This document shows, piece after piece, positions 29,876 to 45,432 of a stretch of 64,000 nucleotides of DNA (position 1 is its first letter; every line of letters begins with the position of its first letter). A program made the position numbers and the translations under genes. The stretch lies in NCBI GenBank assembly GCA_037189845.1, contig JBBCIS010000001.1, forward strand, positions 327,654 to 391,653, read 5' to 3'. Under the pieces are notes generated by a model, which searched no databases, had not been told where the DNA came from, and saw nothing but the letters and a program-made list of their open reading frames with translations. Source of the stretch: a bacterium. Its GTDB lineage: Bacteria > Bacteroidota > Bacteroidia > Chitinophagales > JADIYW01.

Positions 29876-32386
29876 ATGAAAGAGCTGCTGTCAATTATTT
29901 CTACCGTTTTATTTTTTAGTATTCAGGCTAATTCACAAAATATTGGAATCAATTATAACGGAGCTAATCCTGACAATTCAGCCATACTGGATGTCAGCTC
30001 TCCTGACAAAGGATTGCTGATACCAAGAGTCGCACTGGTGGCTACTAATAATGCTTCGCCCGTCGCTTCACCTGCTACAGCTCTTCTGGTGTACAATACT
30101 GCTACAGTAAATGATGTGACTCCGGGATATTACTACAATGCAGGCACTCCGGTTGCACCACTTTGGGTAAGATTACTGATAAAACAGGATACCGGAGAAA
30201 ATTGGTCACTCAATGGCAATTCAGGAACAATTGATGGTACTCATTTCATAGGAACGACGGATGACATTCCTTTGAATTTCAGAGTCAATAATCAGCCTGC
30301 CGGGAGGGTGGATAGCTCAAGCCGAATCACATCATTCGGATTTCAAGCTCTGGAGAACAATATTTCCCGTGACAATACAGCTATAGGATTCAGAGCATTA
30401 AATGCCAATGTATCAGGAGAATACAATACTGCTATGGGAGTTGCTGCGCTTTTATCAAATATTTCCGGTCTGAGAAATACAGCCATTGGCTATACAAGTC
30501 TTTATTGCAATACTACAGGGCACAATAACACGGCTACCGGAATGAGAGCATTAACAGCAAATGTTACAGGAAATGATAATACCGCTACAGGAGCTCTTAC
30601 ATTATCCTATAATACCATAGGAGAGCGGAATACAGCCACAGGTTATGAATCACTTTCTACTAATATTAGTGGGAGCAGGAATACGGCTGCCGGTTACAGA
30701 GCGCTTTATTCTAATACCACCGGGAATGAAAATACAGCTACCGGAGCGAATTCGCTTTCCAGTAATTCTACAGGTGAACGTAATACAGCAAATGGCTATA
30801 TGGTTCTTTATAATAATACTACCGGGGGAAGAAATACAGCTTCAGGCTATGCGTCTCTTTATCACAATACTATTGGGGTGCAAAATGCTGCGACTGGCTA
30901 TCAGGCACTTGGAAATAATACAGAGGGTAATGCTAATACTGCGATGGGTAACAATGTTCTTTTTAGTAATACTACCGGAAGTGACAACACTGCTATAGGT
31001 AGTGGCGCTCTTTATTCCAATACCACAGCGAGCGGAAATACAGCTATAGGCAATGATGCACTTGCCTTTAATACTACAGGAAGTGAAAATCTGGGAATAG
31101 GAGCTAAAGCACTTTATCGCAATTCGACAGGGATTCGGAATACTGCTAGTGGCTACGAAAGTCTTCATTCAAACACCACCGGAGAGTTGAATACAGCTGT
31201 TGGTTTTTCAACGCTTTATTCTAATACTACCGGTAGTGAAAATGTAGCCTCTGGTGCCGGAGCACTTTATAGCAATACTATCGGTGTCAGAAATACGGCT
31301 ACCGGATACAGGGCGTTATATACAAATACTACCAGCAGTCACAATACAGCAGTCGGATTTCAGACACTTACCTTAAATAGAGGTAATGGCAATACAGCCG
31401 TGGGCAATAATGCGCTCAGTGCCAATACTACAGGAAATGATAATGTTGCCATTGGTAGTGGTGCGCTTATGTTGAATACCACGGCAACCGGTAACACAGC
31501 TGTGGGCAATGATGCGCTTTATCAGAATACTTCAGGAATAAACAATACTGCCATCGGTCAAAAAACACTCATGAATAATACCACAGGTGAATCGAATACA
31601 GCTACTGGTAGTTATTCTATGACATTTACCACAGGTACAGGAAATACCGGAAATGGTTATCTGGCACTTTATCTAAATGTTTCAGGGAGCTACAATACTG
31701 CTATGGGTATGCGCGCACTCAATATAAACAGAGCAGGAAGAAATAATTCTGCATTTGGGTGTGAAGCACTCTATAATAATTATGTAGGAATCAATAACAC
31801 TGCTGTGGGTTATCGGGCAGCATACACGCTTCCTGACAATGTAAATAATACCACAGTGATTGGTTCTAATGCAGGATTCAGCACTACAGTAAGTAATCAT
31901 GTTAATATCGGGAATACCAATGTTGTCTGGATAGGTGGCCAGGTCAACTGGGGTACTTATTCTGACAAAAGAATGAAAACAGACATTCAACAAAATGTTC
32001 CGGGACTGGAATTTATTGCAAAACTCAATCCGGTGACCTATCGTCTGGATATTCGTCAGCAGGACAAAATCGGGAATGCCAACAGCTTGAACAGACAAAT
32101 TCTTGAAGAGCAGGATGAAGTCGACTATCCTGAAAAATACGATATAGAAAAAATTATCTTCAGTGGTTTTCTTGCTCAGGAAGTAGAGCAGGCAGCGCAG
32201 GAGGTAGGTTATGATTTCAGTGGAGTAGAAGCTCCCGGAGAAAAAGGAGGTTTATACAGTATCCGATATGCCGAGTTTGTTGTTCCGCTCGTAAAAGCCG
32301 TACAGGAGCTCAAAGCAGAGAATGATGAACTGAAATCTAATTACGAAAAACTATTACAGCGACTGGAAAGAATAGAAAACAGATAA
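29876..32386 (+). CDS. secreted tail-fibre-like repeat protein with C-terminal intramolecular-chaperone (peptidase S74-like) domain
   Basis: The start is moved to MKELLSIISTVLFFSIQANSQ (signal peptide). About 100 consecutive variations of the NTAxGxxALxxNTTG unit follow. The C-terminus SDKRMKTDIQQNVPGLEFIAKLNPVTYRLD...GFLAQEVEQAAQEVGYDFSGV plus a coiled coil is typical of endosialidase-chaperone domains. Confidence 0.8.
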   Translation: MKELLSIISTVLFFSIQANSQNIGINYNGANPDNSAILDVSSPDKGLLIPRVALVATNNASPVASPATALLVYNTATVNDVTPGYYYNAGTPVAPLWVRLLIKQDTGENWSLNGNSGTIDGTHFIGTTDDIPLNFRVNNQPAGRVDSSSRITSFGFQALENNISRDNTAIGFRALNANVSGEYNTAMGVAALLSNISGLRNTAIGYTSLYCNTTGHNNTATGMRALTANVTGNDNTATGALTLSYNTIGERNTATGYESLSTNISGSRNTAAGYRALYSNTTGNENTATGANSLSSNSTGERNTANGYMVLYNNTTGGRNTASGYASLYHNTIGVQNAATGYQALGNNTEGNANTAMGNNVLFSNTTGSDNTAIGSGALYSNTTASGNTAIGNDALAFNTTGSENLGIGAKALYRNSTGIRNTASGYESLHSNTTGELNTAVGFSTLYSNTTGSENVASGAGALYSNTIGVRNTATGYRALYTNTTSSHNTAVGFQTLTLNRGNGNTAVGNNALSANTTGNDNVAIGSGALMLNTTATGNTAVGNDALYQNTSGINNTAIGQKTLMNNTTGESNTATGSYSMTFTTGTGNTGNGYLALYLNVSGSYNTAMGMRALNINRAGRNNSAFGCEALYNNYVGINNTAVGYRAAYTLPDNVNNTTVIGSNAGFSTTVSNHVNIGNTNVVWIGGQVNWGTYSDKRMKTDIQQNVPGLEFIAKLNPVTYRLDIRQQDKIGNANSLNRQILEEQDEVDYPEKYDIEKIIFSGFLAQEVEQAAQEVGYDFSGVEAPGEKGGLYSIRYAEFVVPLVKAVQELKAENDELKSNYEKLLQRLERIENR

Positions 32387-32530
32387 GGGTAAGGAGCTGA
32401 AAGTTATACAGGATAGCGCTTGGGGATACAGGTAAATAGAACTTCCAAAGTTAAAAAATCTCTACAGCACTCACGGAAAACAACAGTTTAAACTCTTTGG
32501 TTGCTCTATAGGTTTTTAAAAAGCTGATAA

Positions 32531-32554
32531 ATAATATACCAATCGGTATATTAT
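32531..32554. promoter_or_regulatory. palindromic operator (candidate TetR site) upstream of the tetR-like gene
   Basis: ataatatacc-aatc-ggtatattat has perfect 10-nt inverted arms, 27 nt upstream of the ATG at 32581. Confidence 0.65.
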
Positions 32555-32580
32555 TTGCGAAAACTTTGTACATTTACACC

Positions 32581-33174
32581 ATGTCCGGCAAAGCAGAGCG
32601 TACCAAACAATTCATCGTAGAAAAAACATCACCTGTTTTCAATCAGAAAGGGTATGCAGGCACCTCTATACAGGATCTGATGCAGGCGACTGGATTGTCC
32701 AAAGGAAGCATTTACGGCAATTTTGACAACAAGGACGAAGTCGCCATTGCAGCATTTGAGCACAACTTCGGAAAAGTAGTGGATCATCTCAAATCACAGA
32801 TATCCGTTCGCAACAATGCTGTTGATAAGCTGCTGGTATATCCTGATACCTACAAACGCTTTTTTCAGATACCATTTTTGCAATATGGATGCCCGTTGCT
32901 GAACACTTCCACAGAAGCAGATGATACCCATCCCATACTCAGAGAGAAAGCGCAGAAAGCACATTTCTACTGGAAAAGATCTTTGATGCATATCGTAGAA
33001 GAAGGAAAAAATGACGGAACTATCCGGACAGACGTTTCCACTGAAGAATTTACCAATATCATGGTCGCATTGATCGAAGGCGGTATCATGCAGGCTAAGC
33101 TCACCGGAAAATCAGAAGACATTTATATCACCATGAAATACCTTGAAAAAATCATACTCGAACTGAAATCATAA
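32581..33174 (+). CDS. TetR/AcrR-family transcriptional regulator
   Basis: N-terminal HTH (FNQKGYAGTSIQDLMQATGLSKGSIYGNFDNKDEV). The start is moved from the TTG (32566) to the ATG. Confidence 0.88.
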   Translation: MSGKAERTKQFIVEKTSPVFNQKGYAGTSIQDLMQATGLSKGSIYGNFDNKDEVAIAAFEHNFGKVVDHLKSQISVRNNAVDKLLVYPDTYKRFFQIPFLQYGCPLLNTSTEADDTHPILREKAQKAHFYWKRSLMHIVEEGKNDGTIRTDVSTEEFTNIMVALIEGGIMQAKLTGKSEDIYITMKYLEKIILELKS

Positions 33175-33186
33175 TTTTTTTACCCA

Positions 33187-33210
33187 AAAATATACCGATT
33201 GGTATATTTT
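33187..33210. promoter_or_regulatory. second copy of the palindromic operator, upstream of the thiolase gene
   Basis: aaaatatacc-gatt-ggtatatttt. Its 20-nt core is the exact reverse complement of the core at 32533..32552. It lies 18 nt upstream of the ATG at 33228. Confidence 0.65.
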
Positions 33211-33227
33211 AAAATAAAACCACAAAA

Positions 33228-34403
33228 ATGAAAGAAGTATATATCGTAGCAGCAAAAAGAACGCCCATCGGCGGTTTTTTGGGTGCGTTGTCTCACATAT
33301 CTGCTACCAGATTAGGTGCGATCGCTATTCAGAGTGCTTTGCAATCCCGGCAGATTCAACCCGAATGGATTCAATCCGTGTACATGGGCAACGTTCTTTC
33401 TGCCAATCTCGGACAGGCGCCAGCCAGGCAGGCTTCGAAATTTGCAGGACTACCCGATACCGTAGAAAGTACGACCATCAATAAAGTCTGCTCTTCCGGT
33501 ATGAAAGCGACCACGATAGGAGCACAGCAGATTCAGCTTGGACTGGAAGATATGGTCGTGACAGGCGGCATGGAAAACATGAGCCAGGTGCCGCACTACA
33601 AAAATCTTCGCTGCATCACCAAGCTGGGACATGAAGAGCTCACAGACGGATTGCTAAAAGATGGTTTGACAGATGTCTATCACCAGTATCACATGGGTCT
33701 TGCAGCCGAATTATGCGTTGATACTTACCATTTTTCCAGAGAACAGCAGGATGCTTATGCCTTACAATCTTATCAGAGAGCGAAAGAAGCGACCGCATCC
33801 GGGAAATTTGAGCAGGAAATCGCACCCGTTCCTCTTTCTTCAAAAGAGGATGGTGAGCAGCTGACCCGGGATGAAGATATCTTCAAGCTGAAAGAAGAAA
33901 AAGTGCCCTCGCTGCCTCCTGCGTTCAAACAGGGTGGAACAGTGACCGCTGCCAATGCCAGCAATTTAAACGACGGCGCAGCAGCTTTGGTACTGGCTTC
34001 AAAAGAAGCAGTAGAAAAATACCGGCTTAAGCCTCTGGCAAAAATCATAGCGTATGCAGATGCAGCGCAGGCGCCTGAGTGGTTCACTACTTCTCCGTCA
34101 GTTGCCATTCAAAAACTGTTGTCCTCCGTACAGATGACGATAGAAGATATCGACTACTTTGAAATCAATGAAGCCTATGCGGCAGTTGCGCTGGCCAATC
34201 AGCAGATACTGAATATCCCTTCCGGAAAGCTGAATATCTACGGCGGAGCAGTTGCGGTAGGACATCCGCTAGGAGCTTCCGGGGCACGCATCATTTGCAC
34301 CTTATTATCCGTACTGAGAAATGAAAAAGGCAGAAACGGAATTGCCGCTATCTGCAACGGCGGGGGTGGAGCGACAGCCATTTTAATCGAAAACTTACAA
34401 TAA
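33228..34403 (+). CDS. acetyl-CoA C-acetyltransferase (thiolase II)
   Basis: 391 aa with INKVCSSGMKA (active-site Cys), NEAYAA, GHPLGASGAR and CNGGGGA, the full thiolase signature set. Confidence 0.93.
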   Translation: MKEVYIVAAKRTPIGGFLGALSHISATRLGAIAIQSALQSRQIQPEWIQSVYMGNVLSANLGQAPARQASKFAGLPDTVESTTINKVCSSGMKATTIGAQQIQLGLEDMVVTGGMENMSQVPHYKNLRCITKLGHEELTDGLLKDGLTDVYHQYHMGLAAELCVDTYHFSREQQDAYALQSYQRAKEATASGKFEQEIAPVPLSSKEDGEQLTRDEDIFKLKEEKVPSLPPAFKQGGTVTAANASNLNDGAAALVLASKEAVEKYRLKPLAKIIAYADAAQAPEWFTTSPSVAIQKLLSSVQMTIEDIDYFEINEAYAAVALANQQILNIPSGKLNIYGGAVAVGHPLGASGARIICTLLSVLRNEKGRNGIAAICNGGGGATAILIENLQ

Positions 34404-34410
34404 TTTTTCC

Positions 34411-34902
34411 ATGACTGCTATAGAAAAACAACCATCCAGCCGGCACAAGATCAGGTTTGTAGACTGCGACCCGTTCAACCATCTGAACAATGCCAAATAC
34501 ATCGACTACATCATAGAAGCCCGCGAAGACCAGATGCTGAAATGCTACGATCTGGATATTTACGCACTGGCGAAAAACACCGGAACATCCTGGGTGGTAG
34601 CACAGAATCAGATCGCCTATCTGTCACCTGCCCGGTTGATGGAGACCGTCATTATCGATACACAGCTGATTGCATTTGACGAGAAAACCATTCTGCTCGA
34701 AGGCACGATGTGGAATGCCGATAAAAGCAAGCTGAAAGCAGTCATGTGGTCAAAGCAGGTACATTTCAATCTCCGTACCCAGCGAAGTCAGCACCATAGC
34801 GATGAAAATCTGCAGTTTTTTGAAAATATACATTCACCTCTATCTGAGCCCATGAATTTTGAGCAGAGAGTTTATACGAATTGTAATTTCAAAACTAAAT
34901 AG
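34411..34902 (+). CDS. acyl-CoA thioesterase, 4HBT/YbgC-like hotdog fold
   Basis: 163 aa. RFVDCDPFNHLNNAKYIDY is the typical 4HBT catalytic-Asp N-terminus. It lies 7 nt after the thiolase. Confidence 0.75.
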   Translation: MTAIEKQPSSRHKIRFVDCDPFNHLNNAKYIDYIIEAREDQMLKCYDLDIYALAKNTGTSWVVAQNQIAYLSPARLMETVIIDTQLIAFDEKTILLEGTMWNADKSKLKAVMWSKQVHFNLRTQRSQHHSDENLQFFENIHSPLSEPMNFEQRVYTNCNFKTK

Positions 34903-35033
34903 TTTTTGAAATTTTACAATCGTTAATGCCGATGTAGCAGTCAAATAGACCAATGAGACAAAGTTGATATTGGTCTATATTGAATGCACAATCGGTACTA
35001 GAGCTTCAGATAAAGTTTTTTGTTAGTTGCCGG

Positions 35034-35071
35034 ACACCGGATGCTTAGTAAGGCTTCGGTGTTTTTTTTTT
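35034..35071 (+). terminator. candidate rho-independent terminator after the thioesterase gene
   Basis: acaccg...cggtgt stem followed by a run of ten T. The loop is long, so the call is only moderate. Confidence 0.5.
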
Positions 35072-35145
35072 ATACGAATTGTAATTTTAAAATAGCCCGA
35101 TATTTTAAAATTTTACAATCGTTAATCGGTATAAGATGAATATTT

Positions 35146-35213
35146 GGACAGCTATTCCGGCTTTCGGTTCCTACCCTCCGTTACACTTCGGATACCACCT
35201 CTATCCGGGCTGC
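35146..35213 (-). repeat. GC-rich intergenic repeat, family R, copy 3 (inverted, shorter)
   Basis: ggacagctattccggctttcgg...cctctatccgggctgc equals the reverse complement of the ends of 3969..4058. It sits at the left border of the Qat island. Confidence 0.65.
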
Positions 35214-35280
35214 GGAAATACAATAGGATGATTTGATTGTTAGAAACTATCAGATTAATTTCTAAGAATAGAATTTGGGA

Positions 35281-36015
35281 TTATTTAACAATGCTTGATA
35301 ACAATCTCTTGAAGTTATTTGAGATAATCTGTTCAACCTCGCTTAAAGGCATATTCCATATAAGAGAAAAATATTTGTAAACCTCAATAACATCCTGAGA
35401 TTTTATAGGTCTCTTGTTTATTTCAATAAAAGGCCCATCTGTCTCAGTTAATAATTTATTTTTGGGAACTCTTTCAATAATATTCTTTCCTGTTTCTGAT
35501 TTTACCATTGCAGGATTAATAGAGAAAAAGTATCCTGCTTTAGCAATAGAGTCAATCAAATTTAAGCCTCCTGAATACCAATGAAAAATTGCAGATTGTA
35601 TATTGTTTTCTATTAAGAGGCCTAAAACTTCTTTCTCTGCTTTTCGGGAATGAATACTCAATATTTTTTTTTGTCCTGAAATAATCTTAAGTATTTTAGA
35701 AAAGGTATCTATCTGAATATCTTTTGTAGATATACCTTCTTTGGAAAAGTCCAAACCAACTTCTCCGATATACGATGTTTTACTAACGTTCTTTAGGAAT
35801 AAATCAAACTCCTTTTTATGCGAATCAGCCATTAAGGGATGCATTCCTAAAGCCAATCTTATTTTTTTCAATGATTGAAAATGAATATATCCCATTTCAA
35901 AATGGCTTGGTAGATTGGTCATTGCTAATACAGTCATATCAGCGTTTACACAGTCTTGCAAAACCTTTTTAGGATTTGGATATAAATCTATATGGCAATG
36001 TGTATCAATAATCAT
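35281..36015 (-). CDS. qatD: TatD-family metal-dependent hydrolase/DNase (QatD-like)
   Basis: 244 aa with MIIDTHCHID (HxH), GEVGLD, SIHSR and TETDGPF, the TatD motif series. It overlaps the upstream gene by 4 nt. Confidence 0.85.
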   Translation of the reverse strand: MIIDTHCHIDLYPNPKKVLQDCVNADMTVLAMTNLPSHFEMGYIHFQSLKKIRLALGMHPLMADSHKKEFDLFLKNVSKTSYIGEVGLDFSKEGISTKDIQIDTFSKILKIISGQKKILSIHSRKAEKEVLGLLIENNIQSAIFHWYSGGLNLIDSIAKAGYFFSINPAMVKSETGKNIIERVPKNKLLTETDGPFIEINKRPIKSQDVIEVYKYFSLIWNMPLSEVEQIISNNFKRLLSSIVK

Positions 36016-37370
36016 CTTATCCCTAACTCAGATTTTACAAATCTGCTTCCTTTGTCTCTAAATAATTTTAGAACTTCTGTTTTACTTCTTAATACCATTT
36101 CGGCATAATCCGTAAGACTATCAATGTCAATATTACCATTCACTAATAAATCTCTTTTCATTCTTTCCAATGGGATATTTCTTTTCAAGTAACTGAATAA
36201 TGCGGGTAAATCATTATTTCCTAAAGATGATATTTTTGTAATAAAATTTCCATACTGGTTTTCATTGTCCAAACCTGCTTTATTTAACGCCGCTCGCCTA
36301 TATATACAAGGCATACATCTTCCACAATTATGCTTCTCGTCAGGGTTGTCAAAATGAAATTGCCTTCTTCCTCTTTTTCCGCAGGAAACAGAATCTTGAT
36401 AAATATTCCTCAGAAATGGTTGATTTGTACATTCAACAAACATTTCTCCTTTAGTTTTAAATGTATAAGGATTATGTATTCTTGTTGACAACCCTAAATC
36501 TGCAAGTATTTCTTGAGTGTTTTTTAAAACATAAGGATGAGTTGTTCGTGTACTCAAAGAACTTACTCTTGACGGTGTAAGGGGGTAATTGATTGAAATT
36601 GTACCATTCTCAGGTATTATTAATTCATTAATTGGAGATAGATAGCAACCTAAGCCAATGAAAAATAGAGAGCGACTACGGTAATTGTTTTCTATAGTTA
36701 CTCTATTTCCATCAGTATCTTTTCTTGATAGTGCTAATTTTGATTGTACCCAATATATTTTATTGGGATATTGAATCGTTAAACGCCTTAATAATGTTCT
36801 TTGGTCTCCATTCGGACCTGGTGATTTTGAATCAAAATGAGAAACTAAAAGTATTCTTTCATTATGACTAAGTTTTTCCAATTCATCAATAACTCCAATT
36901 AAAGAATCTAAACCACCTGAAAATAAACTTACGGATGCGATAGTGTCTTTTTCATAACGTGGAATTTTCCTTCTATTAGTACGTGGTTGAAACAAATCAA
37001 CATCTTCTATTTCTCGGAAAGAAATTTGCCAATTATCTCCTGTTAGAAAATCTAAAATCTGTTTTAATTTTTCTTCTTTACCACTCCAAACAGCTAAATT
37101 ATTCACAGGAAACTCTACTTCTATATCTCTTGTCCAACCATCATTTGAATAAATAGCCCGACTAAGTAAATTATCTACGCCATAAACTATTGCAGATACA
37201 AGAAAGAAATCAAATTTTACAGAAGTAAAATCAGTCGTGAAATCAAAAACTCTTTCGTAACCTAAGAAAGATAATGGAACTTTTCTATCCACTCCGTTGT
37301 CTATATAACAAAGCTGCAAATCTGAGAACTTGCCATAATCAGCGTCCTCAATAACTACGTTAACTCTCAT
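36012..37370 (-). CDS. qatC: QueC-like PP-loop ATPase with long N-terminal extension (QatC-like)
   Basis: 452 aa. SLFSGGLDS is the SGGxDS PP-loop, and HNCGRCMPCIYRR is the CxxCxxC Zn cluster of QueC. It is about twice the length of housekeeping QueC, and no queD/queE/folE neighbours are present. Confidence 0.85.
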   Translation of the reverse strand: MRVNVVIEDADYGKFSDLQLCYIDNGVDRKVPLSFLGYERVFDFTTDFTSVKFDFFLVSAIVYGVDNLLSRAIYSNDGWTRDIEVEFPVNNLAVWSGKEEKLKQILDFLTGDNWQISFREIEDVDLFQPRTNRRKIPRYEKDTIASVSLFSGGLDSLIGVIDELEKLSHNERILLVSHFDSKSPGPNGDQRTLLRRLTIQYPNKIYWVQSKLALSRKDTDGNRVTIENNYRSRSLFFIGLGCYLSPINELIIPENGTISINYPLTPSRVSSLSTRTTHPYVLKNTQEILADLGLSTRIHNPYTFKTKGEMFVECTNQPFLRNIYQDSVSCGKRGRRQFHFDNPDEKHNCGRCMPCIYRRAALNKAGLDNENQYGNFITKISSLGNNDLPALFSYLKRNIPLERMKRDLLVNGNIDIDSLTDYAEMVLRSKTEVLKLFRDKGSRFVKSELGIR

Positions 37371-37372
37371 AA

Positions 37373-38112
37373 CTATTCAAATACGGTTAATACATCTTGT
37401 TGAATATTTTTCACAAGCCTATCAGCTTCATCAGAACCCCAATCAATGTTTTGCAATGGATTTCTTTTGTGCATATCACCAACCCTTTCAACTATGAAAT
37501 TTTTTATTTGACTGAAAAGATTATTACAATCACTTTCGTTCTTGTTTTTTATTAAATTTTCATAGAACCACTTTGATAAAAGTTCATTAATGTAATACCC
37601 AAAATATTTATTATTACATCTTCCAAAGTATTGGTTGTAAATGTTTCTTGTAATAAAGTTTGCACTTCATCAATGGATTCAGCTTGTCCCATTAGTTCCT
37701 CCAATAGTAATCTTGTAGCTTCTTTCGCAGCGTTATCATCAATAGATGTTGCACTACCGGAACAATATTCAATCAAATGATTAATTACATCACCAACTGT
37801 TTTATTATCAATATCAGAAAGTCCTGTAGACTCAAGAGTTTCTCTAATATTGTTACCAGAACTAATAAACTTTGAAAAGACTCCTCCAATTTTCTTAGCG
37901 GTTCTAATACTGCTTCGTCCTCCTGCTTTTGAACCACCACGTCCTCCTGTTGATGCTCCGCCCAATGCAGAAACAAAATGCCCCATAATGTTTTGTAGCT
38001 TCTGAGTTGGAAGAACAGAAGAATCACAATTTGACGTAAGCGAAGAACTAAGCGTACCCCAATTCGGAACCATTGAGTGTTTCACATCAGAAAATGATTT
38101 AGATGTTCCCAT
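37373..38112 (-). CDS. qatB: QatB-like small protein, interrupted by a -1 frameshift (two frames: 37552..38112 and 37373..~37603)
   Basis: The 186-aa tracked ORF (MGTSKSF...) stops at 37552. The -1 frame is open from 37669 to the TAG at 37373 and reads ...GYYINELLSKWFYENLIKNKNESDCNNLFSQIKNFIVERVGDMHKRNPLQNIDWGSDEADRLVKNIQQDVLTVFE. It ends 2 nt before the qatC ATG. Position in the operon is the main basis for the QatB call. Confidence 0.6.
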
Positions 38113-38114
38113 TT

Positions 38115-40013
38115 CTATTTTTTTAAATTAAATGCTTTACTTGCTTTTGACTTTCCATCTTTGAAATAATCAGTTAAAAATTCTCCTATCTCAGGTTCTG
38201 ATTTAAAATCAGATAATCTCGTTGCAACTGCTGGTTCAATATCCGATACACTAATTATTTTAAGAGTTTCCATATAATGATAAACTGTATTTTCTATTTT
38301 ATCTTCTGTCATTGCATTGAAAATGTCATACAACCGCTTTTGCTGAGGATTCCTCTTCAAATTTGAAGATAGAAGATTGAAAAACGCATCTTTTTCAATA
38401 TCGCTAAATGGCTGAAACTTTTGAGTAAGTAAAGATTTGGTAACTGTTGCCGTCATATTATTGGGTAATAACTCATTAAACAATGCCCTTACTACTGGTG
38501 GAATCATACTTGTTGCAGTGATAGAATTTTCTAACTTATCACGGGCAATCCAATAATAATCCCGTAAATCAACTCCTGATAACAATGGTTCTATTTGAAA
38601 CCATTTTATTATTTTGGGTTTACTCCATTCTTTGAAATCAGTATCTTTTATTTCCAATAGAACATCCTCAATGCCTTTATCCTTACATATAGATTCTATT
38701 TCTGTTATTTCTTTTGACATTCCGTCTTGGGAAATTTGCCACTCAAATAATTTTTTGAACAGCTTAGGTTCTGAATATTCAAGTATCATCATTTTTGCAA
38801 GAACAGCATCATTAAAACTTTGTAACGAGGCAACTTCGGCAAGTCTTTTTCTAATTGTATAAGTATTTAGAAACCGTTTAATCTGTCGGGGATTTCCATA
38901 CAAACTATTTGTAATTAACGGTACTAATGCAGGAATCGTAATTACATTATCTTTAACTTTTCCAAATTCCTCTGCTTCTAAAATCTTTTCAAAATTTGAT
39001 AATCCAAATGCAGAATATTTATTCGTTAATCTATACTTCTGAAATTCATCAAGCACATTTTCAAATCTGGTATCGCCAACCTCTTTTTTACAGATAAGCA
39101 TTGATATATAAGTTTCAACTTCTGATTCCGAAAGTCTTGGCAAAGAATAAGGAAGCTGAATTAATTTTTCTAAGTAATCAATAACAATCCGGTTGTTATC
39201 TTCTTCGATTTCTTTATTGTTTTTGTATTTATGCTCAATAGCATATTTTACTATTCGAGGGTCTGCTCCAATGATAAATGCTGTTTTTGGCACATTTAGA
39301 AAAAGTTTAATTGCTTCAAGATTCTCAATAATTCTTTCAGGACTACACCTATCTAAATCATCAATAATGACAACTAATCTTTTAAATTTTGTAGCTTCTA
39401 AGAGGTCAGCAAAATCTTTTCTAAATTCCGCTACTGCATTAGTAGAGTTTTTATCCTCTTCTTTACTTTCTTTTACAAATGCTTTAAATATTTCTTGACC
39501 TTCTTCCGATTTTAGCTTTTCTATTATTTTTTCCGGATTATCTCCCCATTCGGTCAGCTTTTGAACTGCAAAAGGAAGTAAGCTAAGACCTCCTGTGAAG
39601 TATGCAGATACAGCGGGTAAGGCAACATTCTTCATAACCATACCTGCACCACGCATCCAATCAATAGCTTTCCAAAGCTTCTTTGCTTTTTCTTTTATAG
39701 AATCCTTTATTTCTGCTGAAACCTTTTTGTTACCCTCCAATTCTTTAAGAATTGAATTTAGCAATGCGGCTTTAGCATCATCATATCCTTCAAAAGTCCA
39801 TCCATTGAAATATATACAAAGAGAATCCTTATCATCCTCTTTGTCAAATTCTTCTTTTACTATTTGCAGGATACTGGATTTTCCACTTCCCCAATCACCA
39901 AAAACGCCTATTGTAATCGGCAAAACCGATTCATCTTTGATAATATTGATTAATAAATCTGCGTGTACTTTAAATCCCAATAGGTCTTCTGATGTTTCAT
40001 TATCTGCCCACAT
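38115..40013 (-). CDS. qatA: KAP-family P-loop NTPase (QatA-like)
   Basis: 632 aa with DLLGFKVHADLLINII, Walker A GVFGDWGSGKSS and VVIIDDLDRCSPERIIENLEAIKLFL, the hallmark KAP NTPase motifs. Confidence 0.88.
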   Translation of the reverse strand: MWADNETSEDLLGFKVHADLLINIIKDESVLPITIGVFGDWGSGKSSILQIVKEEFDKEDDKDSLCIYFNGWTFEGYDDAKAALLNSILKELEGNKKVSAEIKDSIKEKAKKLWKAIDWMRGAGMVMKNVALPAVSAYFTGGLSLLPFAVQKLTEWGDNPEKIIEKLKSEEGQEIFKAFVKESKEEDKNSTNAVAEFRKDFADLLEATKFKRLVVIIDDLDRCSPERIIENLEAIKLFLNVPKTAFIIGADPRIVKYAIEHKYKNNKEIEEDNNRIVIDYLEKLIQLPYSLPRLSESEVETYISMLICKKEVGDTRFENVLDEFQKYRLTNKYSAFGLSNFEKILEAEEFGKVKDNVITIPALVPLITNSLYGNPRQIKRFLNTYTIRKRLAEVASLQSFNDAVLAKMMILEYSEPKLFKKLFEWQISQDGMSKEITEIESICKDKGIEDVLLEIKDTDFKEWSKPKIIKWFQIEPLLSGVDLRDYYWIARDKLENSITATSMIPPVVRALFNELLPNNMTATVTKSLLTQKFQPFSDIEKDAFFNLLSSNLKRNPQQKRLYDIFNAMTEDKIENTVYHYMETLKIISVSDIEPAVATRLSDFKSEPEIGEFLTDYFKDGKSKASKAFNLKK

Positions 40014-40244
40014 ATTTATGAATATATTATAAATATAGTATTTTTGGTTTATTGATTAAAATGGATATGACTATAAACTTGATATTCGTTATTATTGCTT
40101 TTATATCATTTTAGGAAGCCAAGAATACTTTATTCAGTTTTTTGAATAGACTCATTAATAATAAAGCTTTTAAAATTATTTATTTATAAATAATTATATA
40201 TAATTTAATAATCGCTGTCGCTCATTTGTATTATCACAAGCCCA

Positions 40245-40730
40245 TCACATTTCTTTCAATACTGCAGCAAATTGAGAGAGTATATAATTCGTAAAAGCGA
40301 TCTGGGTTTGAAGAGGATTTTTACCGGTGATAGAAGTGTAGTCTGTCCGGATGATTTTGCCCCGGAAAGCAAACGAATAATAGATGTGAGGAATAGTAAT
40401 GTTTAAAGGCGGATAAGGTGCTGCATATCCCGTTACACTGACACCCCAATCGCTTGCAAACAGAGAGATTGCTCCCAGTGCCATTTGTCCGGCAACTGTT
40501 GGAGAGACGCAGTTGCATTGTAAAGCATGAATCGGATTGACGGAGAGATGCCGTGTTTTCTGACCGAGATTGTAAGCAGTGATTCCTCCCTGAAAAAACA
40601 ACATGGCATCCTCCGCCTGAGAGAATGCCGCCTGCAGATGTCCTGAAGTGACACTCTCAGCCACTGCAACAGTTTGTGAGGACTGCAGCAGATGTTCTTT
40701 GATGATATCGATTTGTTCAGAAAAATACAT
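40245..40730 (-). CDS. CinA-family C-terminal domain protein (nicotinamide-nucleotide amidohydrolase PncC-like)
   Basis: 161 aa with TVAVAESVTSGHL (AESxTGG-type motif) and VSVTGYAAP. Confidence 0.8.
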   Translation of the reverse strand: MYFSEQIDIIKEHLLQSSQTVAVAESVTSGHLQAAFSQAEDAMLFFQGGITAYNLGQKTRHLSVNPIHALQCNCVSPTVAGQMALGAISLFASDWGVSVTGYAAPYPPLNITIPHIYYSFAFRGKIIRTDYTSITGKNPLQTQIAFTNYILSQFAAVLKEM

Positions 40731-40908
40731 GATCAGTAAAATAATGATAAAATTCTCATTCTGTCAATCACATTCAGGAGACGTCCGGAGAAAGAATCTT
40801 TTGAGTTGCAAGAGGCTCAGGACATTATTAGCTGAATGCCCCCTATAGACAAATTGCAGATAATGCTATAAATTAAATTCATAGGTCGTCGTCTTCGGGT
40901 CAATAGGT

Positions 40909-41640
40909 ATGAATGACAGGAGAGATGATTGTATAGTTATAAAGCCCAAAAATTTGGTGATGGATTTTGTTAAAATGATGTCAGAAGGAGCAGAGCTGGA
41001 CTTTGCTATTGAAATAGTCGGCAGGACCGTCTTTATGTTCCTGCTCATATTGTTTATCCTGCGTCTGTCGGGCAGGCGGGGAGTGAGGCAACTTACTTTA
41101 TTTGAAGTAGCTATTATATTAGGACTCGGCTCTGCGGCAGGAGACCCGATGTTTCAGGAGGATATACCCATACTGTATGGGATTATTGTTCTTTCGTCCG
41201 TGATTATCTTATACAAATTCATCACTTTTCTTTCTTCCAGGTTTTTGCTGTTCAATCGCTTAATGGAAGGCAAAGAAATGATTGTTGTTCAGGAAGGAAA
41301 GTTCAGTCTGGAAGGAAATAAGAAAATGGATTTTTCCCAGCGGGAGTTTTTTGCAGAACTGCGCAACAAGGGAATAGAACATCTGGGACAGGTGCGCATG
41401 GGAGTGCTGGAAATAGACGGAAGCTTAAGCGTACTGTTTTATGATAAGGAACATATTCGTTACGGATTGCCGCTTTTCCCGTTAGACTATGTAAAAGTCA
41501 ATACCGGTGATTTCACAGGACCTTTCGCGTGTATGTATTGCGGGCTGGTCGTCGAAAATGTAAATACAGATGCTCCTCAGTGTCCGTACTGTGGAAAAGA
41601 AGAATGGACAAAAGCGATTAATACTCCTTTAGTGAGTTGA
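40909..41640 (+). CDS. DUF421 (YetF-like) membrane protein with C-terminal zinc-ribbon
   Basis: RLSGRRGVRQLTLFEVAIILGLGSAAGDPMF is the typical DUF421 core, and the C-terminus carries CMYCG...CPYCG. The real start is probably an internal Met (about 40960). Confidence 0.7.
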   Translation: MNDRRDDCIVIKPKNLVMDFVKMMSEGAELDFAIEIVGRTVFMFLLILFILRLSGRRGVRQLTLFEVAIILGLGSAAGDPMFQEDIPILYGIIVLSSVIILYKFITFLSSRFLLFNRLMEGKEMIVVQEGKFSLEGNKKMDFSQREFFAELRNKGIEHLGQVRMGVLEIDGSLSVLFYDKEHIRYGLPLFPLDYVKVNTGDFTGPFACMYCGLVVENVNTDAPQCPYCGKEEWTKAINTPLVS

Positions 41641-41655
41641 GGGGGCGATAGGTTT

Positions 41656-41765
41656 GCACTCAGGCTTCGCTCAGTAGCCACAGTATCGGTTGAGAACAAT
41701 TTAAGTTGTAGAAAATCCGGTGTATAGTTGCTACGGTGGTTTGAGCGTAGTCGAAATCATCAGAG
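41656..41765 (+). repeat. intergenic repeat family S, full copy 1
   Basis: gcactcaggcttcgctcagtagcca...atttaagttgtagaaaatccggtgtatagttgctacggtggtttgagcgtagtcgaaatcat. Confidence 0.7.
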
Positions 41766-41875
41766 TCTTTTGTCTTACTTTTTCTAAAAGGATAGCTGGT
41801 TTTCATTGACATCTATCTGGTGATACTTTCTACGAATTGACAATTTGCAGTGTACTACAACTGTCTGCACTTCGG

Positions 41876-41970
41876 CTTCACTCAGTGACCTTGAAATAAT
41901 TTAAGTCATAGAAAATCCGGTATATAATTGCCAGGTGGTTGAGCGTAGTCGAAACCATTGGATCATTCCT
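41876..41970 (+). repeat. intergenic repeat family S, full copy 2
   Basis: gcacttcggcttcactcagtgacc...atttaagtcatagaaaatccggtatataattgccaggtggttgagcgtagtcgaaaccatt is colinear with copy 1. Confidence 0.7.
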
Positions 41971-41994
41971 TTTTCTAAGCTTCTACCGGACTCA

Positions 41995-42846
41995 TCAGGA
42001 TACTATCTCACCGCCATTGGGGTGTAAGACCTGTCCCGTCATATAGCTGTTTTCTTCCAATACCAGGAACAGGTAAGAAGGAGCCACCTCGACAGGCTGG
42101 CCGGGGCGACCCAGCTTCGTATCTTTCCCGAATTCAGATACATGCTTTGCATCAAATGAGCCGTCAATCAATGGTGTAATGATAGGTCCCGGAGCTACAG
42201 CGTTTACCCGTATCTGCTTTTTGGCCAGCTGCATGGCCATTGATCTCGTAAATCCTATGATCGCAGCTTTGGTAGCTGCATAATCCACCAGGTGCTCACT
42301 GCCTCTGAATGCCGTGACAGATGAGGTATTGATAATACAGCTGCCTTTTTTCATATGAGGGAGAGCTGCCTGCGTTAAGTAAAACATGCCGAAAACGTTG
42401 ACCGAAAATGTTTGAAGCAGCTGCTTTTCAGAGATGTTACAAATATCATCCTGCGGATACTGTACGCTGGCATTATTCACCAGGATATCAATACGGCCAA
42501 ACTCTTTTATTGTGCTGCTGACTATCTTTTTGCAAAAATCAGCAGAACGAATATCTCCTTTCAGCGCGATACCTGCAGAGCCACAGCTTTGTACCTGTTC
42601 CAGCGTATATTGAGCATCTTCATCTTCATTATAGTAAACGATAACGCTTTTAATGCCGTACTGTGCATACAGAATTGCTACAGCCTGACCGATACCGCTG
42701 TCTCCTCCTGTGATGATGGCTACCTTGTTCTTTAGTTTTGAGCCCGGGAGATGCTTATCTTTAGGGTGTGTAACAGGTTGATTGTCCATTTCCTGAGTAA
42801 GTGCGGGCTGTTCTTCCAGTTTGCTATTTTGAGAATAATTTTTCAT
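41995..42846 (-). CDS. SDR-family oxidoreductase, YghA/YhdF general-stress type
   Basis: Start at MKNYSQNS. An N-terminal hydrophilic leader is followed by KVAIITGGDSGIG, NNAS and YAATKAA. The overall pattern resembles the YghA/GS39 subgroup. Confidence 0.85.
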   Translation of the reverse strand: MKNYSQNSKLEEQPALTQEMDNQPVTHPKDKHLPGSKLKNKVAIITGGDSGIGQAVAILYAQYGIKSVIVYYNEDEDAQYTLEQVQSCGSAGIALKGDIRSADFCKKIVSSTIKEFGRIDILVNNASVQYPQDDICNISEKQLLQTFSVNVFGMFYLTQAALPHMKKGSCIINTSSVTAFRGSEHLVDYAATKAAIIGFTRSMAMQLAKKQIRVNAVAPGPIITPLIDGSFDAKHVSEFGKDTKLGRPGQPVEVAPSYLFLVLEENSYMTGQVLHPNGGEIVS

Positions 42847-43246
42847 CAGCTTAATTTTTATGATTTTCCGGAATATGCAAGAGACCACCCGTTGTTGTTC
42901 TTCCAGGTAATAATTAAACTTTTGCTCTCAGAAATCAGATTTCCGAAAGCAAAAGCTTAACAAGAAGCAATGTGTGATTAAATAATATCAGACATCACGA
43001 AATCAGATCCTTGCTCTAAAAAGAACGTAAGTATGCGTTTCAGGTTACCGGACTTATGATGGATATTATAGTTGATGATGAGATGCCGGTGCTAACCGAT
43101 ATTTGCATGTTCTGATTTCTGACTGCCAGATTTCCTCCGGAATATGTAGTTGTGGATACACCCGGAAGGAGCATTAACCGTAGATTCTGCGACATATAAA
43201 ATTCTGATACGAGGCAATCGCCTGAGAAAGATGCTTAGCTTCCCAC

Positions 43247-43465
43247 TTAATTATCTGTTTCATACTCTTTCCTGTCAATATCACGGGACTCTTCGGATTT
43301 ATCCTCATGACGTGGCCCGTTATACAGATCTTCATTGCCTGTTTGTTCTTTGGGATCATTAGGTACTTCTTGCTCATGTTGCTTATCCTTTGGCTGCTCC
43401 TCTGCTGGTATAGGATTAATAGGGTAATCCGGATCTATTGGTTTTTTGTTTTCTGGATTTGACAT
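43247..43465 (-). CDS. small highly hydrophilic protein (possible stress protein)
   Basis: 72 aa, rich in P/E/D/K/N with no hydrophobic core. It is supported only by ORF length, context and composition. Confidence 0.35.
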   Translation of the reverse strand: MSNPENKKPIDPDYPINPIPAEEQPKDKQHEQEVPNDPKEQTGNEDLYNGPRHEDKSEESRDIDRKEYETDN

Positions 43466-43890
43466 ACAGTTAAATTTTTGTAGTGAATAATAAACAATAA
43501 AGCAGATTCAATTCTCAGGCCAGAGAAGAGATGTTAAATAATAAATTTGTAAATGTTTTATATTGTGTTATTTATGATTTAATCTTATTTATGTTTCAGT
43601 TGAAATTTATTTAAAGTGTGTATAATTGTTCATTTTTTGGGTAAAAAAATCCCCTTTTGTTCTATATATGTGAAAAATCCCTGAATTTTTGTTAAATTAT
43701 AAAAGTATAGAGATAGATATTTTTATTAGCTATTTATAATCAGTCTATATTGTGAGAGATTAGTCTAAATATGCTATAATCCTGCTTTTTTTTAAATGTT
43801 AATAATTGACTTATACAGTCCGGAGTTCCCTTAAAGCTTAACTTTCAATCTTATTTTTACGTTAACTTACTACACTAATGATATGTAAGT

Positions 43891-45285: not shown

Positions 45286-45432
45286 GTAATTAATTTTCTC
45301 ACCTTTATAGCAGTTTATCTTATGTAATCGCCTGTAAGGTTTCAATTTCATAGTGCAATTTGTCATCCTGCTCTTTACCGGAGAGTAAGGATTTAAACAG
45401 GAAAAGAATATAGCTTAAAGCAAGCTATACAT

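What the first reader, a model, noticed from the sequence alone, without database searches (positions are those of the whole stretch)
35281..40013. QatABCD-type four-gene operon (KAP NTPase, QatB-like, long QueC-like, TatD-like) in an AT-rich insert: candidate anti-phage system
Four minus-strand genes are packed with 2-nt gaps or a 4-nt overlap.
- Gene 1 is a 632-aa KAP P-loop NTPase (GDWGSGKSS; VVIIDDLDRCSPERIIENLEAIKLFL).
- Gene 2 is a ~245-aa unrecognised protein.
- Gene 3 is a 452-aa QueC-like PP-loop enzyme (SLFSGGLDS and CGRCMPC). It is about twice the size of biosynthetic QueC, and no queD, queE, queF or folE neighbours are present.
- Gene 4 is a TatD-like hydrolase (IIDTHCHID).

This content and order match what I recall as the Qat system (QueC-like associated with ATPase and TatD) from the 2020 Gao et al. 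defence-island screen. Its mechanism is still poorly understood. The block is visibly more AT-rich than the flanking thiolase/thioesterase and cinA-like genes. Repeats border it on the left, which is consistent with horizontal acquisition. The QatB-like protein begins Met-Gly. That may matter if, as I recall being reported for related QueC-like defence enzymes, the QueC homologue conjugates a 7-deazaguanine derivative to a partner protein N-terminus. That link is speculation here.
Basis: partly seen in the sequence, partly recalled or inferred. Interest (0 to 1): 0.85.

Follow-up and report, generated by a model that had tools for sequence, protein, structure and literature searches.

The report
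Known QatABCD defence cassette, qatB frameshifted
This is a horizontally acquired copy of the already described QatABCD anti-phage defence operon in a Bacteroidota chromosome, ordinary except that a one-base deletion truncates its essential qatB gene, so this copy is probably disabled.

Summary
The four minus-strand genes are a genuine QatABCD operon. PADLOC hits are QatA 9e-113, QatC 2.5e-91 and QatD 5e-64. QatC matches solved QatC structures at 1.5e-54. A model of an intact close relative of QatB matches only the solved QatB chains. All published signature motifs are present.

Gene 2 is not an intact ~245-aa ORF. One A is missing from an A-run at 37607-37609, where relatives have AAAA. The reading frame stops at 37552, giving 186 aa and leaving 181 nt before qatC. 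More than 100 Bacteroidota relatives encode an intact protein of about 246 aa. The truncated product would lose the last three helices. An independent read-based assembly, 100% identical over 16.7 kb, carries the same deletion.

Horizontal acquisition is supported. GC3 is 0.19-0.26 in the Qat genes against 0.41-0.54 in the neighbours. The four genes alone share 82-91% nucleotide identity with cassettes labelled Sphingobacterium, Pedobacter, Arcicella and Dysgonomonas. The left-border repeats, however, are native host sequence.

Verdict: a new, probably inactivated member of a known system. Low interest.

The parts
38115..40013 (-). qatA: KAP-family P-loop NTPase, 632 aa, intact
   Evidence: PADLOC QatA 9.1e-113. 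Pfam KAP_NTPase 9.6e-54. Walker A GDWGSGKS at 39-46 and Walker B VVIIDDLD at 214-221. Same length (631-632 aa) as in all related cassettes.
37552..38112 (-). qatB as encoded: a 186-aa ORF. Residues 1-168 are authentic QatB, followed by 18 out-of-frame residues and a premature stop.
   Evidence: ORF list. Alignment to intact relatives diverges after ...EDVII. MGTS at 1-4, P16 and W18 are present. PADLOC QatB 2.9e-6. The identical 186-aa product is annotated PF28083:QatB.
37607..37609 (-). Frameshift site: the A-run is AAA here and AAAA in intact relatives (1-nt deletion).
   Evidence: DNA alignment of qatB with L002, L004 and L005 has a single internal gap column at this run; the two extra columns at the very end only reflect the longer L001 slice. 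Coordinates derived from the output. The deletion is also present in the read-based Logan contig L001, which is 100% identical to window 29599..46315.
37373..37606 (-). Orphaned 3' part of qatB (codons ~169-246 of the ancestral gene). It is now out of frame, still free of stop codons, and ends 2 nt before the qatC ATG.
   Evidence: Three-frame translation. The repaired protein is 97% identical to P0001, with one difference (G226S) after the junction.
36012..37370 (-). qatC: QueC-family PP-loop enzyme with Qat-specific extensions, 452 aa, intact
   Evidence: PADLOC QatC 2.5e-91. Solved QatC 9vlk_A 1.5e-54 and 9zee_B 1.5e-52. SGGLDS at 151-156, STRTTHP at 273-279, and C330/C349/C352/C355. Pfam QueC scores only 20.6 bits, below its cut-off of 22.
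35281..36015 (-). qatD: type II TatD-family metal-dependent nuclease, 244 aa, intact; overlaps qatC by 4 nt
   Evidence: PADLOC QatD 5.3e-64. Pfam TatD_DNase 3.1e-47. PDB 3gg7_A 3.7e-45 and 9xsn_A 4.3e-43. HCH at 6-8, GMHP at 57-60, GEVGLD at 84-89, SIHS at 120-123, FHW at 144-146 and TETDGP at 190-195.
40014..40244 (-). AT-rich non-coding region upstream of qatA. It presumably holds the operon's promoter and the right-hand junction of the insert.
   Evidence: Nucleotide homology to other cassettes ends between 40014 and 40035. The sigma-70-type scan is at background level and there is no exact TAnnTTTG motif, so the promoter is inferred, not shown.

Best explanation
This is a chromosomal copy of the QatABCD anti-phage defence cassette (qatA, qatB, qatC, qatD). 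It was acquired horizontally as a bare four-gene unit by an unidentified Bacteroidota host.

In characterised Qat systems, QatB loses Met1 and inserts its Gly2 N-terminus into the ATP-dependent PP-loop active site of QatC. The two proteins form a 1:1 complex. QatC is proposed, with partial mass-spectrometry support, to attach a 7-deazaguanine-derived group to that N-terminus. The QatB tail also tethers the TatD-type nuclease QatD. The KAP NTPase QatA broadens the phage range. I infer that this copy was built to work the same way, because every signature residue is conserved.

In this genome, however, a one-base deletion in qatB replaces the last 78 residues (three helices of the globular domain) with 18 unrelated residues. 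It also uncouples the qatB stop from the qatC start. The QatBC-dependent core of the system is therefore most likely non-functional. The deletion is very recent, because the orphaned frame has not decayed.

Shown here: gene identities, motifs, the frameshift, and the composition and mobility of the cassette. Inferred: the biochemical mechanism (by homology), loss of function, and any polar effect on qatC and qatD.
For: Identity:
- PADLOC QatA 9e-113, QatC 2.5e-91, QatD 5e-64, and QatB 2.9e-6 as encoded or 1.9e-8 repaired.
- QatC against solved QatC structures gives 1.5e-54 and 1.5e-52, with SGGxDS, STRTTHP and CxxCxxC aligned.
All other PDB hits are noise.
- The QatB N-terminus MGTSKSF with P16 and W18 is invariant across 38 relatives. 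These are the residues shown to be essential in PMC13279940 and PMC13639016.

Frameshift:
- The gene span is 740 nt.
- There is a single-base gap in an A-run relative to L002, L004 and L005.
- Nearly all of the 120 listed relatives are intact at 244-250 aa, and none shares this truncation.
- The deletion is reproduced in a Logan read-based contig that is 100% identical over 16,717 nt.
- The truncation point, residue 169, lies inside helix 163-187. Helices 193-212 and 228-243 are also lost.
- Published E. coli QatB interface residues M200, I208, D212, I214 and V218 lie beyond the aligned truncation point (alignment; PMC13639016).
- Deleting qatB abolishes defence (PMC13279940).

Acquisition:
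- GC3 is 0.19-0.26 against 0.41-0.54 in neighbours.
- Nucleotide identity of 82-91% to other cassettes is confined to 35401..40035, while the flanking host genes are at most 62% identical in protein to any other species.
- Elsewhere the same cassette sits in unrelated contexts, including an integrative-element-like defence island.
Against: - The deletion lies in a homopolymer. The remaining frame is pristine (no stop codons, one amino-acid difference from the nearest relative), and the other three genes are intact. That pattern also fits a sequencing or consensus error.
- I could not inspect read pile-ups, and the Logan contig may derive from the same reads as the deposited assembly.
- Loss of function is inferred, not measured. 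The truncated protein keeps the whole N-terminal tail, which carries the QatC-substrate and QatD-binding determinants.
- QatD alone gave some protection in E. coli (PMC13434339).
- The last ~87 residues of QatC did not align to solved QatC chains, and their fold could not be modelled.
- No phage assay exists for any Bacteroidota Qat system.
Confidence: 0.72

Rival explanations
1. The one-base deletion is a sequencing or assembly artefact. The organism carries an intact 246-aa qatB and a fully functional QatABCD system.
For: The change is a one-base length difference in a homopolymer (AAA versus AAAA). After the shift, the old frame has no stop codons over 78 codons and differs from the closest relative at one residue. 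qatA, qatC and qatD are full length.
Against: A Logan contig assembled directly from the reads of SRR27999908 shows the same deletion and is identical to the window at all 16,717 positions. A 3-4 base run is short for homopolymer miscalling. The 186-aa product is recorded from both NCBI and Logan sources.
Confidence: 0.2
2. The qatB lesion is real, but the locus still gives partial defence. This would come from QatD (with or without QatA), or from the truncated QatB, whose N-terminal tail can still enter QatC and bind QatD.
For: QatD alone protected E. coli against lambda and P1 (PMC13434339). QatB-QatD binding depends almost exclusively on QatB residues 2-46 (PMC13639016), which are retained here. 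qatA, qatC and qatD are intact with all catalytic motifs.
Against: Deleting qatB abolished defence in P. aeruginosa Qat, and QatBC interface mutants lose defence (PMC13279940, PMC13639016). Losing three of the core helices probably destabilises the fold. The premature stop lies 181 nt upstream of qatC and may lower qatC and qatD translation (inference). The QatD-alone results came from over-expression in E. coli.
Confidence: 0.15
3. The frame change is bypassed by programmed -1 ribosomal frameshifting at U_UUG_GGU, or it acts as a reversible phase-variation switch, so full-length QatB is made conditionally.
For: The zero-frame sequence T_TTG_GGT formally fits the X_XXY_YYZ pattern. A -1 slip there restores the family C-terminus. 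The lesion lies in a mononucleotide run.
Against: There is no stable structure downstream (minimum free energy -9.6 kcal/mol, z-score 0.25). The slip product would read N-I-L where the family has K-Y-F, and Y170 and F171 are invariant. From general knowledge, GGG is not a usual second triplet of efficient slippery sites. None of the 120 listed relatives is split at this point. A 3-4 base run is far shorter than known phase-variable tracts (established knowledge).
Confidence: 0.03
4. The genes are housekeeping: a queuosine / 7-deazaguanine biosynthesis QueC with an associated TatD repair nuclease, not a defence system.
For: QatC belongs to the QueC superfamily, with a weak Pfam QueC hit of 20.6 bits. 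TatD enzymes also act in DNA repair.
Against: The Pfam QueC score is below its cut-off. The CDG-recognition Tyr/Asp pair of QueC is replaced by the Qat-specific Thr-x-Thr at T274/T276 (PMC13279940). E. coli QatC does not complement a queC deletion (PMC13329287). No queD, queE, queF or folE is found in the window. The cassette has foreign composition and occurs in defence islands in other genomes.
Confidence: 0.01

Closest known systems
QatABCD anti-phage defence system (Gao et al. 2020 screen; structures and function of the P. aeruginosa, E. coli and A. baumannii systems in PMC13279940, PMC13376578, PMC13639016, PMC13434339)
   Same: - Same four genes in the same order and tight packing.
- QatA is a KAP NTPase with Walker A and B motifs.
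- QatB has the MGTS N-terminus plus P16 and W18, and the QatB fold.
- QatC has SGGxDS, four Zn cysteines and the invariant Thr-x-Thr.
- QatD has the type II TatD HxH motif and metal-ligand motifs.
   Different: - qatB carries a 1-nt deletion that truncates the protein at residue 168.
- It belongs to a Bacteroidota clade. In Foldseek alignments, a model of its close relative is only 18-19% identical to the solved QatB chains.
- This clade's QatB is shorter, at 246 aa against 282-287-residue solved chains.
- The last ~87 residues of QatC show no detectable sequence similarity to solved QatC.
- No member of this clade has been tested experimentally.
Type IV CBASS Cap9 (QueC-like) with Cap10 and a CD-NTase
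   Same: A QueC-family PP-loop enzyme that accepts the Gly2 N-terminus of a partner protein (MGGS in CD-NTases, MGTS in QatB) for ATP-dependent nucleobase conjugation (PMC13279940, PMC13376578).
   Different: - Cap9 is a minimal protein of ~185 aa that keeps the canonical QueC Tyr/Asp substrate residues. This protein is 452 aa, has extensions, and has Thr-x-Thr instead (PMC13329287).
- No CD-NTase or TGT-like Cap10 gene was found in the window.
- The partner is QatB, which is structurally unrelated to CD-NTases.
Canonical QueC (7-cyano-7-deazaguanine synthase, PF06508)
   Same: Rossmann-like PP-loop core, an SGGxDS pyrophosphate loop, and a CxxCxxC zinc site.
   Different: - It scores below the Pfam QueC cut-off (20.6 against 22 bits).
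- It is about twice the size.
- The substrate-recognition residues are remodelled.
- It has no que-gene neighbours.
- The tested E. coli QatC cannot make preQ0 (PMC13329287).

Membership tests
QatABCD | Four co-directional, tightly packed genes in the order qatA-qatB-qatC-qatD | tested here: met
   ORFs at 40013..38115, 38112.., 37370..36012 and 36015..35281 on the minus strand, with a 2-nt gap and a 4-nt overlap. The ancestral qatB stop lies 2 nt before qatC.
QatABCD | QatA: KAP-family P-loop NTPase with Walker A and B | tested here: met
   PADLOC QatA 9.1e-113. Pfam KAP_NTPase 9.6e-54. GDWGSGKS at 39-46 and VVIIDDLD at 214-221.
QatABCD | QatB: all-helical QatB fold (PF28083) | tested here: met
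   Precomputed PF28083:QatB on the window's own product and on all relatives. PADLOC QatB 2.9e-6, or 1.9e-8 repaired.
QatABCD | QatB N-terminal MGTS motif with Gly2, plus conserved Pro16 and Trp18 in the tail | tested here: met
   MGTSKSFSDVKHSMVPNW. M1, G2, T3, S4, P16 and W18 are invariant in 38 relatives. These residues were shown to be essential in PMC13279940 and PMC13639016.
QatABCD | QatB encoded as one intact full-length ORF | tested here: not met
   A 1-nt deletion at 37607-37609 gives a 186-aa product that lacks residues 169-246 of the family. This affects function of this copy, not its ancestry.
QatABCD | QatC: SGGxDS pyrophosphate-binding loop | tested here: met
   SGGLDS at 151-156, aligned to S156-S161 of the solved QatC chains.
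QatABCD | QatC: four zinc-binding cysteines (C...CxxCxxC) | tested here: met
   C330, C349, C352 and C355, aligned to the Zn cysteines of 9vlk_A and 9zee_B.
QatABCD | QatC: invariant Thr-x-Thr replacing the Tyr/Asp CDG-recognition pair of QueC and Cap9 | tested here: met
   STRTTHP at 273-279 (T274, T276) is identical to the same heptapeptide in both solved QatC chains (PMC13279940).
QatABCD | QatC: N- and C-terminal extensions flanking the QueC core | tested here: inconclusive
   Residues 50-145 align to the N-terminal extension of solved QatC, and the total length is similar (452 against 465-466-residue chains). Residues 366-452 gave no sequence alignment.
QatABCD | QatD: type II TatD nuclease with N-terminal HxH and binuclear metal ligands | tested here: met
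   PADLOC QatD 5.3e-64. TatD_DNase 3.1e-47. PDB 9xsn_A 4.3e-43. The motifs HCH 6-8, GMHP, GEVGLD, SIHS, FHW and TETDGP match by pattern the classes of ligands listed in PMC13434339; this correspondence was not checked by alignment.
QatABCD | Confers resistance to phage infection | not testable with these tools
   Needs cloning and plaque assays. The qatB frameshift predicts reduced or absent activity.
QatABCD | QatB-QatC 1:1 complex and N-terminal modification of QatB | not testable with these tools
   Needs co-purification and LC-MS/MS of the N-terminal peptide (here GTSKSF). No complex prediction tool was available.
Canonical QueC (queuosine biosynthesis) | Passes the Pfam QueC threshold, keeps the Tyr/Asp CDG-binding residues, and has que-gene neighbours | tested here: not met
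   PF06508 scores 20.6 bits against a cut-off of 22. Thr-x-Thr sits at the substrate site. No QueD, QueE, QueF or FolE families were found in the window.
Type IV CBASS (Cap9/Cap10/CD-NTase) | Minimal ~185-aa QueC-like Cap9 next to a CD-NTase and a TGT-like Cap10 | tested here: not met
   The protein is 452 aa. Its neighbours are a KAP NTPase, QatB and TatD. No CD-NTase or TGT families were found in the window.

The most novel reading that the evidence does not exclude
The truncated qatB may be a natural separation-of-function allele rather than a dead gene. The 168-residue fragment keeps the MGTS tail, P16/W18 and the QatD-binding loop. It might still be modified by QatC or still tether QatD. 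That would give a mode of Qat defence or regulation that does not need the C-terminal QatB helices. Alternatively, the A-run might toggle the system on and off.
Probability: 0.04. Interest if true: 0.4.

Novelty: new member of a known kind. Interest (0 to 1): 0.15.

Why it matters
It matters little beyond annotation. The locus shows that a well-conserved QatABCD cassette circulates widely among Bacteroidota; a published QatD survey describes that phylum as only sporadically represented (PMC13434339). In one search, all 120 listed relatives were at least 54% identical to the repaired QatB. The locus also offers a natural qatB C-terminal truncation that could be compared with a one-base repair, to test whether the QatB globular domain is needed for defence. 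It is also a caution for automated defence-system calls: the four family hits are all present, although the essential substrate protein is frameshifted.

Tried and rejected
- Empty-site synteny test. A genome-contig scan with the flanking thioesterase found only relatives at 62% or lower. They keep the TetR-thioesterase pair but have no cinA or Qat genes downstream. One close host relative (L034, 86% nucleotide identity) ends just before the junction. A search with the cinA-like protein found no relative above 56%. The test could not be completed.
- QatC C-terminal extension. The single-sequence model had pLDDT 31.6 and was discarded. A profile search aligned only residues 50-365.
- Promoter and terminator scan. 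Counts were at shuffle background (26 found against 28.0 expected), and there is no exact Bacteroidota TAnnTTTG motif upstream of qatA.
- Rfam on the borders gave only a sub-threshold Flavo-1 hit on the left and nothing on the right.
- Plasmid and phage collections hold no record with the cassette, only marginal 2-12% fragments. No vehicle was identified.
- Mobile-element ends. Homology to other cassettes stops at the coding block. No shared flanks, no integrase and no flanking direct repeats were found.
- Programmed frameshifting, a biosynthetic QueC reading and a type IV CBASS reading were each considered and rejected (see the rival explanations and the membership tests).
- Host identity was not resolved beyond Bacteroidota. 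The evidence is T9SS sorting domains and nearest homologues labelled Flavobacterium, Sphingobacteriaceae and Ohtaekwangia.

Full report
**Observation**

The stated interval holds four co-directional minus-strand ORFs.
- A 632-aa protein is encoded at 38115..40013.
- A 186-aa protein is encoded at 37552..38112.
- A 452-aa protein is encoded at 36012..37370.
- A 244-aa protein is encoded at 35281..36015.

The first and second genes are 2 nt apart, and the third and fourth overlap by 4 nt.

The block is clearly more AT-rich than its surroundings. GC is 0.30-0.33 per 500-nt window across 35000-40500, with one window at 0.36. The flanking genes are at 0.41-0.49. Third-position GC is 0.19-0.26 for the three intact Qat genes, against 0.41-0.54 for the thiolase, thioesterase, CinA-like, DUF421 and SDR neighbours.

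Gene 2 is not an intact ORF of about 245 aa.
- From the Met-Gly start at 38112 to the stop codon that lies 2 nt before the qatC ATG (37373) is 740 nt, which is not a multiple of three.
- The starting frame ends at 37552 with ...NILGITLMNFYQSGSMKI*.
- A second frame is open from about 37615 to 37373 and reads ...KYFGYYINELLSKWFYENLIKNK...DVLTVFE*.

A database search with the spliced 246-aa sequence returned 201 relatives.
- The best 120 are 54-97% identical.
- Nearly all are 244-250 aa long.
- All carry the precomputed Pfam family PF28083 (QatB).
- Where a source names an organism, it is a Bacteroidota taxon (Sphingobacterium, Dysgonomonas, Pedobacter, Arcicella, Chryseobacterium, Aquirufa, Kordia, Zobellia, Tenacibaculum).

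In the alignment, the window's product follows the family exactly up to ...TLEDVII and then diverges. The spliced sequence matches ...EDVI[IV]KYFGYYINELLSKWFYENLI....

At the DNA level the only internal gap against three intact relatives is one missing A. The relatives read GTA AAA TAT TTT GG; the window reads ATA-AAA-T. The run lies at window 37607-37609.

Shorter relatives in the hit list are explained by contig ends, mis-called starts or in-frame deletions. None shares this truncation.

**Is the deletion real?**

The identical 186-aa product is recorded from both NCBI and Logan sources. A Logan contig built from the reads of SRR27999908 (L001, 16,717 nt) is identical to window 29599..46315 at every position, including the deletion. 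That argues against an error introduced by one assembler. A 3-4 base run is also short for homopolymer miscalling.

I could not inspect read pile-ups, and the two assemblies may share reads. After the shift the ancestral frame has no stop codons over 78 codons. It has one amino-acid difference (G226S) from the closest relative. The other three genes are full length. The event is therefore either very recent or an artefact. I put a real lesion at roughly 0.75-0.8 and an artefact at 0.2.

**What the genes are**

PADLOC models hit all four proteins.
- QatA scores 9.1e-113.
- QatB scores 2.9e-6.
- QatC scores 2.5e-91.
- QatD scores 5.3e-64.

The repaired QatB scores 1.9e-8 and aligns through profile position 283 of 294. 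Pfam gives KAP_NTPase 9.6e-54 and TatD_DNase 3.1e-47. Its QueC hit is only sub-threshold, at 20.6 bits against a cut-off of 22.

QatC matches the two solved QatC chains at 1.5e-54 (9vlk_A) and 1.5e-52 (9zee_B). Three motifs align:
- SGGLDS;
- the heptapeptide STRTTHP;
- the cysteines C330, C349, C352 and C355.

QatD matches 3gg7_A at 3.7e-45 and 9xsn_A at 4.3e-43. It has the HxH motif and motifs that match by pattern the classes of metal ligands described for A. baumannii QatD (PMC13434339).

QatB is too divergent for pairwise sequence detection against the solved QatB (E 0.17; profile E 0.005). The model has mean pLDDT 89.4 and pTM 0.89. A Foldseek search of the PDB returned only the QatB chains of the QatB-QatC complex, 9y02_A and 9y01_A. 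Their probability is 1.00 and TM is 0.63-0.74. The next hits have E above 0.6.

No QueD, QueE, QueF, FolE, CD-NTase or TGT families occur among the window's ORFs of 130 aa or more. None occur among the called genes within about 8 kb either. The surroundings are ordinary chromosomal genes, including UvrA, RecJ, PEPCK, DprA and FtsH.

**How it works, by homology to published systems**

- QatB and QatC form a 1:1 complex that is sufficient for defence against some phages. QatA and QatD broaden the range (PMC13279940).
- Met1 of QatB is removed, and Gly2 sits in the QatC active site next to ATP (PMC13376578, PMC13639016).
- Several changes abolish or severely reduce defence: G2D, deletion of the tail segment containing P16 and W18, the QatC SGGxDS mutations, the zinc-cysteine mutations and the Thr-x-Thr mutations (PMC13279940, PMC13639016).
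[quoted passage not shown] In-vitro activity has not been reconstituted, and the first substrate of QatC is still debated (PMC13639016, PMC13376578).
- The QatB tail (residues 2-46) tethers QatD, which is a nuclease acting on single-stranded DNA (PMC13639016). For A. baumannii QatD, a 3'-5' exonuclease and AP-endonuclease activity inhibited by NTPs was reported (PMC13434339).
- QatC does not complement a queC deletion (PMC13329287).

The window's proteins carry every one of these signature residues. The QatB N-terminus is MGTSKSF...P16-N-W18. I therefore infer that the ancestral cassette worked the same way.

**Predicted consequence of the frameshift**

Residue 169 falls inside the long helix 163-187 of the model. 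That helix and helices 193-212 and 228-243 are replaced by 18 unrelated residues.

By the profile alignment to E. coli QatB (query 51-181 against chain 85-201), the published interface residues M200, I208, D212, I214 and V218 lie beyond the truncation (PMC13639016). That alignment is weak, so the mapping is approximate.

The premature stop is 181 nt upstream of the qatC ATG instead of 2 nt. Translational coupling is probably lost; this is an inference. Deleting qatB abolishes defence (PMC13279940), so the QatBC core is most likely non-functional here. Residual activity from QatD, or from the retained QatB tail, cannot be excluded.

Programmed recoding is unlikely. T_TTG_GGT formally fits a -1 slippery pattern, and a slip there would restore the frame. 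But the product would read NIL where the family has KYF, and Y170 and F171 are invariant. There is also no downstream structure, with a z-score of 0.25.

**Acquisition**

Nucleotide identity of 82-91% to cassettes in other genomes and metagenomes is confined to about 35401..40035. The Sphingobacterium-, Pedobacter-, Arcicella- and Dysgonomonas-type loci are L004, L030, L032 and L027. The shared region is just the four genes, with no shared flanks.

By contrast, the flanking thioesterase and CinA-like proteins are at most 62% and 56% identical to anything outside one metagenomic relative.

In other genomes the cassette sits in unrelated contexts.
- In L027-L029 it lies beside AbiEii and SIR2-HerA, in a region with ParA, DUF3408 and two integrases.
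- In Pedobacter it follows an SbcCD-like gene pair.
- In Arcicella it stands alone.

No plasmid or phage record carries it. Together with the composition, this supports recent horizontal transfer of a bare cassette.

The left-border repeats do not support acquisition. The 57-nt duplicated, internally palindromic segment, the terminator hairpin and a GC-rich Flavo-1-like element all recur downstream of the thioesterase in a host relative at 86% nucleotide identity (L034). Host sequence therefore reaches about 35215, leaving at most ~65 nt before the qatD stop.

**Verdict**

This is a correctly recognised QatABCD cassette. What this analysis adds is minor:
- this copy's qatB is frameshifted;
- the cassette belongs to a conserved, mobile Bacteroidota clade;
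- the supposed insertion repeats are native host sequence.

It is a new member of a known kind, of low interest.

Noticed in passing
window 34871-34927 and 35069-35126: A ~57-nt direct duplication, 96% identical in the two 24-nt cores. The first copy includes the last 32 nt of the thioesterase gene. Each copy is itself palindromic (TTGTAATTTCAAAA...TTTTGAAATTTTACAA). Both copies, and the terminator-like hairpin at about 35030-35068, also occur downstream of the thioesterase in the host relative L034. They are therefore host features of unknown role, possibly operator or terminator elements of the TetR-thiolase-thioesterase unit.
   Followed up: partly
window 35150-35215 (-); L034 2845-2916 (-): A GC-rich element matches Rfam Flavo-1 RNA below threshold: 24.0 bits with E 0.0076 in the window, and 21.8 bits with E 0.032 in the relative, against a gathering score of 42. 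It sits at the same position relative to the thioesterase in both sequences. In the window it lies directly downstream of qatD on the same strand. It could be a divergent Flavo-1-like sRNA or motif.
   Followed up: partly
window 45843-46751 (+), overlapped by an ORF on the opposite strand at 45841-46653: A 302-aa low-complexity protein with no Pfam hit. It has an N-terminal S/N/R-rich part, a long Asp/Glu block, then Ser/Gly/Arg repeats and a C-terminal '...KRGFASMSKAQRTKIARMGGEASGKS...' tail. It produces a local GC peak of 0.52 and sits next to a DUF892 gene (46880-47533). It may be a disordered stress or desiccation-type protein.
   Followed up: partly
window 29822-32386 (+): An 854-aa protein made of many short 'NTA.G..AL..NT.G' repeats, with a C-terminal Peptidase_S74 intramolecular-chaperone domain (1.7e-08). 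This is a tail-fibre-like architecture encoded in the chromosome.
   Followed up: no
window 48112-48552 (-): A tRNA cluster of Lys(ttt), Leu(gag) and Lys(ttt). A fourth Rfam tRNA hit at 48220-48291 just reaches threshold (30.0 bits against 29) and is not called by ARAGORN. It may be a degenerate or unusual tRNA.
   Followed up: no
L027-L029 (1-17700); L003/L004 (6517-7719); L030 (3093-8064): In other Bacteroidota the same Qat cassette lies next to other defence-type genes. In L027-L029 these are DUF6922-AbiEii, SIR2_2 plus a HerA/DUF87 ATPase and a NERD protein, within a region carrying ParA, DUF3408, HTH_17 and two tyrosine integrases (integrative-element-like). In Pedobacter a large SbcCD-like gene pair ends 35 nt upstream of qatA.
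   Followed up: partly
protein P0121 (ENA metagenome contig, 2742 nt): A close QatB relative, 98% identical to P0001, has an in-frame 8-residue deletion (ELLSKWFY) in the same long helix, a few residues after the window's frameshift point. This is a second independent lesion in that helix.
   Followed up: no
window 58217-62812 (+): A 1531-aa secreted protein combining a CotH kinase domain, lamin-tail and Fn3-associated domains, and a T9SS C-terminal sorting domain. Together with the Por_Secre_tail ORF at 3077-3559, it supports a Bacteroidota host.
   Followed up: no
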